DNA of 37,559 bases from Candidatus Aenigmatarchaeota archaeon (lineage in GTDB: Archaea; Aenigmatarchaeota; Aenigmatarchaeia; QMZP01), in NCBI GenBank assembly GCA_017609145.1, contig JAFCEM010000001.1, positions 1 to 37,559 on the forward strand. The letters are read 5' to 3'. Of the stretch, positions 6,892-7,589 are shown in pieces. The notes under the pieces were generated by a model that was not told where the DNA came from, did no database searches, and worked only from the letters and a program-made list of their open reading frames with translations. The translations under genes were made by a program, and so were the position numbers. Every line of letters starts with the position of its first letter. Positions within the stretch are counted from its first letter, which is position 1.

Positions 6892-7079
6892 ACTTATTTA
6901 TTCTGTTAAGTACATAATAACACGAATCAATTCTATGCAATGGTGGCTTTTGGTTTGCTTGTGGCAGTGGTCCTTGTTGCGGGTTGCACTGCACCAGCTG
7001 ACGGCGGCAACAATACCGGCGACGGAACCCCGAGTGCATTGACTTATACTATTGATTTTATTTTAAAGAGTCATGAGAA

Positions 7080-7151
7080 TGGACCAGGCGAGATTCGAAC
7101 TCGCAGCCTCCTGCATGCCGAGCAGGCGATCTACCATTGATCTACTGGCCC
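7080..7151 (-). tRNA. tRNA-Ala (anticodon GGC), no intron, no encoded CCA
   Basis: Reverse complement: GGGCCAG-TA-GATC-AATGGTA-GATC-G-CCTGC-TCGGCAT-GCAGG-AGGCT-GCGAG-TTCGAAT-CTCGC-CTGGTCC-A. This is a full cloverleaf with the G3:U70 alanine identity pair. The anticodon loop reads TC-GGC-AT, so position 33 is C, not U. Confidence 0.85.
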
Positions 7152-7152
7152 A

Positions 7153-7296
7153 TGGGCCGAGCCAGAATTGAACTGGCGATCTCCGCCTTGTAAGGGCGGC
7201 GTCATGCTTCTAGGAACCTCTTACAAGTTCTTTCCCGGGGTTTCTTGCGTAAGCCCTTGGGCTCCTGTAAGAAAGGCCTCACTAGACCACCGGCCC
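7153..7296 (-). tRNA. tRNA-Val (anticodon UAC) with an insert (intron) of about 69 nt in the D-loop
   Basis: Reverse complement starts GGGCCGG-TG-GTCT-AGTGAGGCC... and ends ...A-TGAC-G-CCGCC-CTTACAA-GGCGG-AGATC-GCCAG-TTCAATT-CTGGC-TCGGCCC-A. The acceptor, anticodon and T arms are perfect. The two D-stem halves (GTCT / TGAC) are separated by about 80 nt where 8-11 nt would be normal. Confidence 0.8.
7206..7274 (-). other. Putative non-canonical tRNA intron in the D-loop of tRNA-Val (boundaries approximate)
   Basis: Removing about 69 nt leaves the D-loop AGTGAGGCCA and a 75-nt tRNA. The insert contains a 7-bp helix TCTTACA/TGTAAGA (7266-7272 with 7219-7225), a GCCC-AA-GGGC hairpin and a CCCGGG palindrome. 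I could not place an exact bulge-helix-bulge by eye. Confidence 0.55.
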
Positions 7297-7320
7297 ATTT
7301 AAGATTTTAACTCAAAACAG

Positions 7321-7330
7321 ATTTATAAAT
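7321..7330 (-). promoter_or_regulatory. TATA-box candidate for the tRNA-Val/tRNA-Ala transcription unit
   Basis: ATTTATAAAT is centred about 29 nt upstream of the tRNA-Val 5' end (7296). tRNA-Ala follows tRNA-Val after a single nucleotide, so the two are probably one transcript. Confidence 0.45.
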
Positions 7331-7342
7331 GCGCCGACCGGG

Positions 7343-7497
7343 ATTTCCTCCCTGAGAGACTTACCCGGAATTATCATATTAACGGTTTGAACCGCTAATC
7401 TGCATGTTCTTTGGGTAAGCCTTAGCCTTTCTTCGAACACCCCTAATGCAAACGAGGATTCCCTGCTTGCGCAGGGGATGTTTTCGAAAGGCTCAGG
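7343..7497 (-). other. tRNA-Gly intron 3, 155 nt, within the T-loop/T-stem (boundary ambiguous over a few nt)
   Basis: The 5' T-stem strand and loop CCGGG-TTCGATT are separated from the matching CCCGG-TCGGCGC-A by 155 nt. The insert folds into long helices: AGCCTTTC/GAAAGGCT, CCCTGC-GCAA-GCAGGG and GGCTTACCC/GGGTAAGTC. Confidence 0.7.
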
Positions 7498-7519
7498 AAT
7501 CGAACCCGGGTCTCCACCG

Positions 7520-7537
7520 AACTGCTCGGCAACCGAA
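7520..7537 (-). other. tRNA-Gly intron 2, 18 nt, canonical 37/38 position with textbook bulge-helix-bulge
   Basis: Anticodon stem TCACC/GGTGG; 4-bp helix CTGC/GCAG; 5' bulge CA|T; intron helix TCGG/CCGA with TTG loop; 3' bulge TT|C. The intron sequence is TTCGGTTGCCGAGCAGTT. Confidence 0.85.
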
Positions 7538-7546
7538 TGGCAGGGT

Positions 7547-7561
7547 TCCGCGCGAATGCTT
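7547..7561 (-). other. tRNA-Gly intron 1, 15 nt, inside the 5' strand of the anticodon stem (about position 28/29 or 29/30)
   Basis: The 5' stem strand TCACC pairs with GGTGG only after AAGCATTCGCGCGGA is removed. The boundary can slide by 1 nt because of flanking A residues. I could not draw a clean BHB. Confidence 0.6.
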
Positions 7562-7589
7562 GACGTCCTACCGCTAGACTATCGGCGCA

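What the first reader, a model, noticed from the sequence alone, without database searches (positions are those of the whole stretch)
7343..7497. 155-nt highly structured insert in the tRNA-Gly T-loop: possible intron-hosted ncRNA
The insert is far longer than splicing requires and is not random sequence. I can draw an 8-bp helix AGCCTTTC/GAAAGGCT, which extends with GAA/TTC and CCCC/GGGG. There is also a 6-bp hairpin closed by a GNRA tetraloop (CCCTGC-GCAA-GCAGGG). A second domain is closed by a 9-bp helix GGCTTACCC/GGGTAAGTC and contains a GCGGT-TCAA-ACCGT hairpin. Some archaeal tRNA introns carry functional RNAs, for example the box C/D guide in tRNA-Trp introns. This insert has a CUGA near its 5' end and UAUGAUAA near its 3' end, a permuted weak C/D-like pair that would be juxtaposed if the intron circularises. 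The function is unknown.
Basis: partly seen in the sequence, partly recalled or inferred. Interest (0 to 1): 0.62.

Follow-up and report, generated by a model that had tools for sequence, protein, structure and literature searches.

The report
Long mobile intron in tRNA-Gly T-loop
The 155-base folded insert in this archaeal glycine tRNA gene is a protein-spliced intron of a known kind that is absent from the same gene in the closest relative found and recurs in other tRNA genes, so it looks like a recently spread intron, not a carrier of a guide RNA.

Summary
The insert is real. Removing it and two smaller inserts (15 nt at 29/30, 18 nt at 37/38) leaves a clean 71-nt tRNA-Gly(GCC). Its ends form a near-canonical bulge-helix-bulge motif with the T-loop, which places it at 59/60 (window 7498..7344, minus strand). 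It folds as a closing helix with two ~70-nt hairpin arms (-67 kcal/mol, z = -7).

The host appears to be an Aenigmatarchaeota-like DPANN archaeon from hydrothermal vents. In the closest relative that keeps the SRP54 / Zn-ribbon / tRNA-Gly order (SRP54 84% identical), the same tRNA gene is 70/71 identical and has no introns. Other relatives carry none, or unrelated 59/60 introns.

Short contigs from three vent studies carry 90-100% identical pieces of this intron joined to other tRNA T-loops and 3' exons. One 39-nt core is identical in a copy with different flanks. This matches the intron transposition described for Thermoproteales.

The C/D-like motif pair is at chance level, and one copy lacks the C-like box. 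Rfam finds nothing. No RNA data exist, so a stable or circular intron RNA is untested.

Verdict: new member of a known kind, unusually long; published range 11-129 nt.

The parts
7330..7588 (-). tRNA-Gly(GCC) gene: 259 nt of DNA for a 71-nt tRNA, in four exons (7588..7561, 7545..7538, 7519..7499, 7343..7330)
   Evidence: Enumerating deletions gave a unique anticodon arm. ARAGORN calls the spliced 71-mer tRNA-Gly(gcc). The intron-less orthologue in L020 is 70/71 identical.
7546..7560 (-). Intron 1, 15 nt, at 29/30 (AGCAUUCGCGCGGAA), a mini bulge-helix-bulge intron
   Evidence: A homologous 15-16-nt intron sits at the same site in L014/L015 and L005. The central-helix pair G26-C in the window is A26-U in L014, a compensatory change read directly from the sequences.
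7520..7537 (-). Intron 2, 18 nt, at the canonical 37/38 position
   Evidence: Read from the sequence as a clean hBHBh' motif: anticodon stem, bulge UU|C, central helix CUGC/GCAG, bulge CA|U, outer helix UCGG/CCGA. No relative examined has it.
7344..7498 (-).
   Evidence: The register follows from the bulge-helix-bulge rule (cut after the second base of each 3-nt bulge) and from comparison with 59/60 introns in L010, L013 and the L005 tRNA-Leu.
7492..7497 (-). 5' strand of the outer splice-motif helix, CCUGAG.
   Evidence: It pairs with CUCAGG at 7356..7351 (MFE). It is kept in all copies that reach this end.
7424..7491 (-). Arm 1: long irregular hairpin (CCUUUC/GAAAGG, AACAUCCC/GGGAUGUU, GCAAGCAGG/CCU-GUUUGC). 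It includes the most conserved core, 7449-7487.
   Evidence: Folds. The core is identical over 39 nt in contig X5-2, which has different flanks. It also occurs with other flanks in X2-6.
7357..7422 (-). Arm 2: 10-bp basal helix (AGGCUUACCC/GGGUAAGUCU), internal loops, and an apical 7-9-bp hairpin UUAGCGG-UUCAAA-CCGUUAA
   Evidence: Fold. Contigs X1-1, X2-4/5 and X3-9 keep it. X1-2 has a shortened 3' strand.
7372..7402 (-).
   Evidence: Pattern scan: 6% of shuffles show such an arrangement. It is not kept in copy X1-2. Untested.
7343..7356 (-). 3' splice region: CUCAGG (outer helix), an extra G, AGGA (pairs with T-loop U54-U55-C56-G57), and bulge AA|U, whose U becomes U60
   Evidence: Read from the sequence. 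Copy X1-1 has CUCAGG-AGGA-AAU without the extra G, and X1-2 has AGAA-AAU. The same layout occurs in unrelated 59/60 introns: UGGA-UAU in L010, UGAA-UGU in L013, UGGG-AAU in the L005 tRNA-Leu.

Best explanation
The 155 nt are a protein-spliced (bulge-helix-bulge) intron at position 59/60 of tRNA-Gly(GCC) in an Aenigmatarchaeota-like DPANN archaeon. It is one copy of a lineage-restricted, modular family of structured introns that has recently spread among tRNA genes.

How it works (inferred from sequence and comparison). In the precursor the T-stem forms. The intron's 3' segment AGGA pairs with the near-universal T-loop bases U54-U55-C56-R57 to make the 4-bp central helix. The 3-nt bulges AU|U and AA|U present the two cut sites. 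The 6-bp helix CCUGAG/CUCAGG closes the intron.

The splicing endonuclease would cut both bulges. RtcB-type ligase would join the exons and probably circularise the intron.

The two ~70-nt arms fold on their own and keep the splice sites together. Because the intron carries its own half of the splice motif, and that half pairs with an invariant T-loop sequence, it can work in any tRNA. This would explain copies in several tRNA genes at the same site.

I see no evidence that it hosts a guide RNA. The arms are most simply passenger or scaffold sequence of a selfish or neutral element, possibly built up by nested insertions.
For: - Splicing the three inserts in silico restores a canonical tRNA-Gly.
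- Empty site: L020/L021 (SRP54 84% identical, same SRP54 / Zn-ribbon / tRNA order) carry the gene uninterrupted, 70/71 identical.
- L016 and L017/18 are also intron-less. L014/15 have only the 29/30 intron.
- L010/11, L012 and L013 have 59/60 introns of other lengths with no sequence similarity to this one.
- Paralogous copies: Logan contigs in runs X1, X2, X3 and X5 match 37-155 nt of the intron at about 90-100% identity. They continue into other exons: 3' exons CCCAG-CGGGAGC-G and CCCGC-CCGGG, and T-loops UUCAAAA, UUCAAAG and UUCAACA.
- A 39-nt core is identical in X5-2 despite different flanks.
- X5-2 and X2-6 start with GAGGCCUUUUUACAGGA. That matches 17 of the first 18 nt (one gap) of the D-loop intron of the window's own tRNA-Val. 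This points to module exchange between introns.
- The splice-motif layout is shared with unrelated 59/60 introns. Position 57 covaries with its partner: G57.A in the window, A57-U in L010 and L013.
- Structure is preserved among copies. Five of 8 substitutions hit unpaired sites, which are 24% of positions (p = 0.02). G58A and C44U keep or extend helices.
- Published background: 59/60 is a known intron site, and intron transposition is described for Thermoproteales (PMC4090602). DPANN endonucleases with extra loops go with disrupted tRNA genes (PMC5829648).
Against: - No RNA evidence of splicing or of the fate of the intron.
- The splice motif is slightly relaxed: one extra G on the 3' strand and one G.A in the central helix.
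- I never obtained a full-length paralogue. Copies are 90-520-nt low-coverage contigs, their flanks are known for at most 30 nt, and I cannot show that they lie in the same genome.
- The strong conservation of the 39-nt core relative to its flanks, and the bias of changes to loops, would also fit a selected function of the RNA.
- The window's exact core variant (T at 7459) is seen only in X5-2. The MAG contig could therefore be a mosaic of paralogues at this spot.
Confidence: 0.72

Rival explanations
1. The intron hosts a functional structured RNA. After excision and circularisation, the two-arm RNA would persist and act in trans or bind a protein, for example L7Ae at the CAGA / hairpin / UAU-GA motif. 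The conserved core would reflect that function.
For: - Very stable fold (z = -6.97).
- A 39-nt core identical between copies whose flanks differ.
- Substitutions biased to unpaired sites, and helix-preserving changes.
- Precedent: the C/D RNA in tRNA-Trp introns (PMC4090602).
Against: - Absent from the orthologous gene in every relative examined, including one with 70/71 identical exons.
- No Rfam family matches.
- The k-turn-like pattern occurs in 6% of shuffles and is lost in copy X1-2.
- Recent copying alone explains near-identity.
- No RNA data.
Confidence: 0.15
2. It is a (permuted) box C/D guide RNA, as in tRNA-Trp introns. CUGA and UAUGAUAA would come together after circularisation.
For: CUGA at nt 2-5 and AUGAUAA at nt 121-127 are present.
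Against: - Both motifs together occur in 16.5% of shuffles.
- The C-like box has A in place of the G that pairs with the first base of box D.
- CUGA is base-paired in the outer splice helix.
- There are no C'/D' boxes.
- The flanking 'guide' segments are buried in a 9-10-bp helix.
- Copy X1-2 lacks the C-like box.
- No Rfam snoRNA or sRNA hit even at E <= 10.
Confidence: 0.03
3. It is a disabling insertion (a dead tRNA gene hit by a small repeat element) or an assembly chimera, not a spliced intron.
For: The window's exact variant of the core is not found joined to these exons in the runs examined. Three inserts in one gene is extreme.
Against: - All four exons are intact and give a perfect cloverleaf.
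- All three inserts have splice-motif geometry.
- An independent contig from another study spans the 3' exon and the intron (X3-9).
- Relatives carry up to four or more introns in this same gene (L013).
Confidence: 0.05
4. The core belongs to the 'triplex-capable hairpin cassette' family that earlier notes of this scan report in DPANN tRNA introns. Here it would be CCCU / a 2-bp GC turn with a GCAA loop / AGGG / and a distant GGGA that mirrors AGGG.
For: In most copies nt 55-58 read GGGA, the mirror image of AGGG at nt 34-37. CCCU at nt 22-25 can pair with either. This resembles the description in e1-982056.
Against: - The resemblance is to a verbal description only. No sequences of that family were available.
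- No three-way covariation can be tested with the few variants at hand.
- Ordinary Watson-Crick alternatives explain all variants.
- The by-sequence look-up found no look-alike in other windows.
Confidence: 0.05

Closest known systems
Non-canonical bulge-helix-bulge tRNA introns at 59/60 (Thermoproteales, Nanoarchaeota, ARMAN/Micrarchaeota; Marck & Grosjean 2003 and Sugahara 2008, as reviewed in PMC4090602)
   Same: Same insertion site and same splice-motif logic. Several introns occur in one gene (29/30, 37/38, 59/60). Removal is by a protein endonuclease.
   Different: The host is an Aenigmatarchaeota-like DPANN archaeon. At 155 nt the intron exceeds the 11-129 nt range given in that review, where medians are 12-25 nt. 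It is a two-arm, three-way-junction fold rather than a short hairpin.
Transposed tRNA introns of Thermoproteales (Fujishima et al. 2010, as summarised in PMC4090602)
   Same: Near-identical intron sequences occur in tRNA genes of different identity and at different positions (T-loop copies here, and a module shared with a D-loop intron). Presence and absence differ between close relatives.
   Different: A different phylum and much larger, modular introns. Here a precise empty site with 70/71 identical exons is documented. That the copies lie in one genome could not be shown.
Box C/D sRNA nested in the tRNA-Trp(CCA) intron of Euryarchaeota (Omer 2000, Clouet d'Orval 2001, cited in PMC4090602)
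   Same: A tRNA intron much longer than splicing needs.
   Different: The tRNA-Trp intron is conserved in the orthologous gene across species and has true C, D, C' and D' boxes and guides. This intron is absent from orthologues, and its C/D-like motifs are at chance level.
Disrupted tRNA genes of DPANN archaea linked to endonucleases with extra loops (Kaneta et al. 2018, PMC5829648)
   Same: A DPANN host with heavily interrupted tRNA genes.
   Different: That paper does not analyse Aenigmatarchaeota tRNA sets or describe intron families. The endonuclease of this genome could not be examined.

Membership tests
Archaeal protein-spliced (BHB) tRNA intron | Removal restores a canonical, foldable tRNA | tested here: met
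   The spliced 71-mer is called tRNA-Gly(gcc) by ARAGORN. An intron-less orthologue is 70/71 identical.
Archaeal protein-spliced (BHB) tRNA intron | Two 3-nt bulges separated by a 4-bp helix and flanked by helices at the exon-intron junctions | tested here: met
   By inspection: T-stem / AA|U / UUCG:AGGA / AU|U / CCUGAG:CUCAGG. It is relaxed by one extra G and one G.A pair. Copy X1-1 lacks the extra G. Unrelated 59/60 introns in L010, L013 and L005 have the same layout.
Archaeal protein-spliced (BHB) tRNA intron | The genome encodes a splicing endonuclease able to cut non-canonical sites, plus an RtcB ligase | not testable with these tools
I did not scan the window's proteins systematically for these enzymes.
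Archaeal protein-spliced (BHB) tRNA intron | Spliced junction and excised intron seen in RNA | not testable with these tools
   No RNA runs hold this sequence.
Transposed/multicopy tRNA intron family (Thermoproteales type) | Near-identical intron sequences in tRNA genes of different identity | tested here: met
   Logan contigs at about 90-100% identity are joined to at least 3 different 3' exons and at least 4 different T-loop sequences. Only short flanks are known.
Transposed/multicopy tRNA intron family (Thermoproteales type) | Copies lie within one genome, and presence/absence differs between close relatives | tested here: inconclusive
   Presence/absence is shown. Membership of one genome could not be shown. 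Contig depths of 2-5.5x are similar to those of the window's own pieces.
Box C/D sRNA | Box C (RUGAUGA) and box D (CUGA) brought together by a terminal stem into a k-turn | tested here: not met
   The only near-match to box C is AUGAUAA, with one mismatch. CUGA is at the 5' end inside the splice helix. The pair occurs in 16.5% of shuffles.
Box C/D sRNA | Internal C'/D' boxes and single-stranded guides of 10-12 nt | tested here: not met
   No second box pair. The flanking segments are paired in the 9-10-bp basal helix of arm 2.
Box C/D sRNA | Boxes conserved among homologues | tested here: not met
   Copy X1-2 replaces the 22 nt holding UAUGAUAA with CUGUGAA.
Any Rfam 15 family | Covariance-model match | tested here: not met
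   Nothing on the insert at gathering scores or at E <= 10, apart from a 14.7-bit chance hit.
H/ACA sRNA | Hairpin with a pseudouridylation pocket, an upper stem capped by a k-turn, and an ACA box 3' of the basal stem | tested here: not met
   No ACA follows either arm; ACA occurs only at nt 17 and 91. There is no 5-6-bp upper stem between the internal loop and the G.A pairs (fold).

The most novel reading that the evidence does not exclude
The two-arm RNA, or its conserved ~40-70-nt arm-1 core, is the active unit of a tRNA-targeting mobile element. In this reading it is excised as a stable, possibly protein-bound circle, and it re-enters other tRNAs at the invariant T-loop through its AGGA-AAU guide segment, by reverse splicing followed by copying into DNA. 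The family would then give a concrete, testable handle on the unknown mechanism of archaeal intron transposition.
Probability: 0.1. Interest if true: 0.75.

Novelty: new member of a known kind. Interest (0 to 1): 0.4.

Why it matters
How archaeal tRNA introns are gained is unresolved. The main evidence is similarity between introns in Thermoproteales.

This locus adds three things:
- A second, distant lineage (DPANN) with the same pattern.
- A precise empty site in a close relative, with exons 70/71 identical.
- An intron whose own 3' segment pairs with the invariant T-loop. That suggests a simple reason why T-loops of different tRNAs can all receive it.

At 155 nt it is longer than the range in the review I read (11-129 nt). 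Gene finders miss the gene entirely: ARAGORN and the Rfam tRNA model both skipped it. Such genes are therefore probably under-counted in DPANN genomes.

It does not, on present evidence, reveal a new functional RNA.

Tried and rejected
- The fetch from genomes and the genome search. I could not take a census of the window's own genome, type its endonuclease, or search relatives by DNA.

Searches that found nothing useful:
- Exact-pattern scan of metagenome contigs with CCTGAGCCTTTCGAAAACAT: one chance hit in an unrelated contig.
- Scan of genome contigs with the core AWTCCCTGCTTGCGCAGGGG: four chance hits in bacteria, and not the window's own genome.
- Viral contigs with the core: none.
- Translating the open frame across the intron to fish for spuriously called ORFs on other contigs: no candidates.
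- Covariance model R1, built from the window plus four variants reconstructed from read laying tables: no further copy in the window or in 11 related loci. Its consensus structure lost arm 2 because two rows were partial.
- BLAST of the intron against all fetched loci: nothing.
- RNA runs: none.

Readings considered and rejected or left weak:
- Global alignment of the Gly and Val introns: not significant (38 of 300 shuffles score as well). Only the 5' module shared through X5-2/X2-6 is convincing.
- tRNA-like origin of arm 2 (GGUUCAAACC hairpin): no tRNA-model hit even at E <= 10.
- k-turn in the arm-1 internal loop: no arrangement fits, by inspection.
- H/ACA and C/D readings: rejected.
- Triple-helix reading from earlier notes: could not be tested with the few variants available.

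Full report
**What is there**

Three tRNA genes lie head to tail on the minus strand. ARAGORN and the Rfam tRNA model find only tRNA-Ala(GGC) at 7152..7079.

Reading the strand shows two more:
- tRNA-Val(UAC) at 7296..7153, with a D-loop insert.
- A tRNA-Gly gene at 7588..7330, whose acceptor, D and T arms are obvious but lie 259 nt apart.

Enumerating deletions in the 55 nt between the D arm and the T stem gave one solution only. It has a 15-nt insert at 29/30 and an 18-nt insert at 37/38, and leaves the anticodon arm UCACC-CUGCCAC-GGUGG.

Removing these two and the 155-nt T-loop insert gives a 71-nt sequence. ARAGORN draws it as a canonical tRNA-Gly(gcc).

**The observation**

The 155 nt fold at -67 kcal/mol against -38.9 +/- 4.0 for shuffles, z = -6.97. 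The same fold forms inside the whole precursor.

The architecture is:
- a 6-bp closing helix, CCUGAG/CUCAGG;
- arm 1 (7491..7424), a long irregular hairpin;
- arm 2 (7422..7357), a 10-bp basal helix with internal loops and a 7-9-bp apical hairpin with loop UUCAAA.

The GNRA hairpin CCCUGC-GCAA-GCAGGG is possible, but it competes with a longer hairpin that the energy model and one natural variant favour.

**Splice sites**

Intron 2 is a textbook motif: the anticodon stem, bulge UU|C, helix CUGC/GCAG, bulge CA|U, helix UCGG/CCGA. I applied the same rule to the T-loop, namely a cut after the second base of each 3-nt bulge.

- The T-stem is followed on the 3' strand by bulge AA|U.
- The four bases before that bulge (AGGA) pair with U54-U55-C56-G57.
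- The 5' bulge is A58-U59|U.
- The outer helix is CCUGAG/CUCAGG, with one extra G.

This puts the intron at 59/60, window 7498..7344.

The layout recurs in unrelated 59/60 introns of relatives: UGGA-UAU in L010, UGAA-UGU in L013, UGGG-AAU in the tRNA-Leu of L005. Where position 57 is A, its partner is U.

Position 59/60 is a known non-canonical site (PMC4090602).

**Who carries it**

The flanking genes are archaeal: SRP54, eIF2-alpha and a fused primase. The best named SRP54 relatives are Aenigmatarchaeota and "Nanoarchaeota" MAGs. The DNA occurs in hydrothermal-vent metagenomes.

**The same gene in relatives**

I used SRP54 and the 42-aa zinc-ribbon gene that precedes the tRNA to fetch orthologous loci.

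| Locus | SRP54 identity to window | Introns in tRNA-Gly(GCC) |
|---|---|---|
| window | - | 29/30 (15 nt), 37/38 (18 nt), 59/60 (155 nt) |
| L020/L021 | 84% | none; gene 70/71 identical to the window's spliced product |
| L016 | 71% | none |
| L017/L018 | 69% | none |
| L014/L015 | 72% | 29/30 only (15 nt), homologous to the window's intron 1 |
| L005 | 76% | 29/30 (16 nt) and 53/54 (32 nt) |
| L010/L011 | contig cut | 59/60 only (82 nt) |
| L012 | 76% | 59/60, cut by the contig end |
| L013 | contig cut | at least four introns |

In L014 the central-helix pair of intron 1 is A26-U where the window has G26-C, a compensatory change.

None of the other 59/60 introns resembles the 155-nt one by BLAST or by a covariance model. 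So the intron is not a conserved feature of this tRNA. The site is empty in the closest relative that keeps this gene order.

**Copies elsewhere**

Logan contigs of runs from three studies were laid on the window. The window's organism is present at about 3x depth: identical pieces cover tRNA-Ala, tRNA-Val and the 3' half of the intron.

Other short contigs match parts of the intron at about 90-100% identity but continue into different sequence:

| Contig | Part of the intron matched | What it continues into |
|---|---|---|
| X1-1 | 7351-7430 | 3' exon CCCAG-CGGGAGC-G |
| X1-2 | 7379-7497 | CCCGC-CCGGG, with arm 2 shortened |
| X5-1 | 7448-7496 | follows T-loop UUCAAAG |
| X5-2 | 7449-7487, identical over 39 nt | preceded by GGUUCAACA-CAUGAGGCCUUUUUACAGGAC |
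| X2-6 | 7441-7477 | different flanks on both sides |
| X3-9 | 3' flank, 3' exon and whole intron (3 substitutions, 1 insertion) | the window's own 3' exon and flank; T-loop reads UUCAAAA |

The extra 5' module of X5-2 and X2-6 (GAGGCCUUUUUACAGGA) matches 17 of the first 18 nt (one gap) of the D-loop intron of the window's own tRNA-Val. The introns therefore exchange modules.

Among the copies, 5 of 8 substitutions fall in unpaired positions, which make up 24% of the region (p = 0.02). G58A shifts the register so that U20 pairs. C44U turns a bulge into an A-U pair.

**The hosted-RNA idea**

- Rfam finds nothing.
- The CUGA is a strand of the splice helix.
- AUGAUAA is one mismatch from box C.
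- Both motifs together occur in 16.5% of shuffles.
- X1-2 lacks the C-like box.
- There are no C'/D' boxes, and the would-be guides are paired.
- H/ACA features are absent.

A different pairing gives a k-turn-like motif: CAGA, then a 7-bp hairpin, then UAU-GA. Such an arrangement occurs in 6% of shuffles and is not kept in X1-2. I record it as a weak lead.

Earlier notes of this scan describe structured, possibly triplex-forming cassettes in DPANN tRNA introns. The core here has a CCCU / AGGG / GGGA mirror arrangement that fits the verbal description. I could not test membership or three-way covariation.

**Conclusion**

The insert is a genuine, unusually long intron; the review gives a range of 11-129 nt. 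It is strongly structured, sits at 59/60 and has bulge-helix-bulge splice sites.

It belongs to a multi-copy, modular family. It was gained, or lost from relatives, within the divergence of very close relatives. This is the pattern described as intron transposition in Thermoproteales, here in a DPANN lineage.

Shown:
- the insert, its fold and its boundaries;
- the empty site;
- the copies with other flanks;
- the chance level of the C/D motifs.

Inferred:
- that the intron is spliced;
- that it is circularised;
- that the AGGA-AAU segment pairing with the invariant T-loop makes it portable;
- that the arms are passenger or scaffold sequence.

Not testable here:
- RNA species;
- endonuclease type;
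- whether the copies share one genome.

Noticed in passing
window 7153-7296 (minus strand): tRNA-Val(UAC) carries a D-loop intron of roughly 70-80 nt. Its first 18 nt (GAGGCCUUUCUUACAGGA) match the 5' module of T-loop intron copies X5-2 and X2-6 in vent metagenomes. No variant copies of the Val intron itself were found in four runs.
   Followed up: partly
window 7520-7560 (minus strand): The other two introns of tRNA-Gly. The 15-nt intron at 29/30 is shared with relatives L014 and L005 and shows a compensatory G26-C to A26-U change in its central helix. The 18-nt intron at 37/38 is seen only in the window.
   Followed up: partly
L013 1060-1550: The tRNA-Gly(GCC) of this relative has at least four introns (280 nt for a 71-nt tRNA). 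It is preceded by two tandem partial copies of its own 5' end (GCACCGG/GCGCCGGTAGTCTAA), each followed by the same ~80-nt element.
   Followed up: no
L005 5619-6374: A 251-aa LAGLIDADG_3 (homing-endonuclease-type) gene lies on the opposite strand, 10 nt beyond the 3' end of the orthologous tRNA-Gly. The window has no counterpart.
   Followed up: no
L005 7085-7300 and L014 3930-4065: tRNA-Leu(CAA) has a canonical-position intron containing AAUGAUGA / GGGAUGA followed closely by GUGAGA, which is also the splice-helix strand; this is a C/D-like or k-loop-like motif. L005 also has a ~75-nt 59/60 intron in this gene that L014 lacks.
   Followed up: no
window 7459: The window has T at this position. 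Every matching contig in runs X1, X2 and X3 has A, and only X5-2, which has other flanks, shares the T. The MAG contig may be a mosaic of paralogous intron copies around 7440-7460.
   Followed up: partly
window 7424-7429 and 7418-7423 (minus strand, intron nt 69-80): A tandem AAGGCU-AAGGCU sits exactly at the junction of arm 1 and arm 2. Without arm 2 the intron would be a simple 88-nt stem-loop, so arm 2 may be a nested insertion.
   Followed up: no
window 7079-7588: Standard tRNA finders (ARAGORN, and the Rfam tRNA model at its gathering score) detect only one of the three tRNA genes in this cluster. tRNA sets of such genomes will look incomplete.
   Followed up: yes
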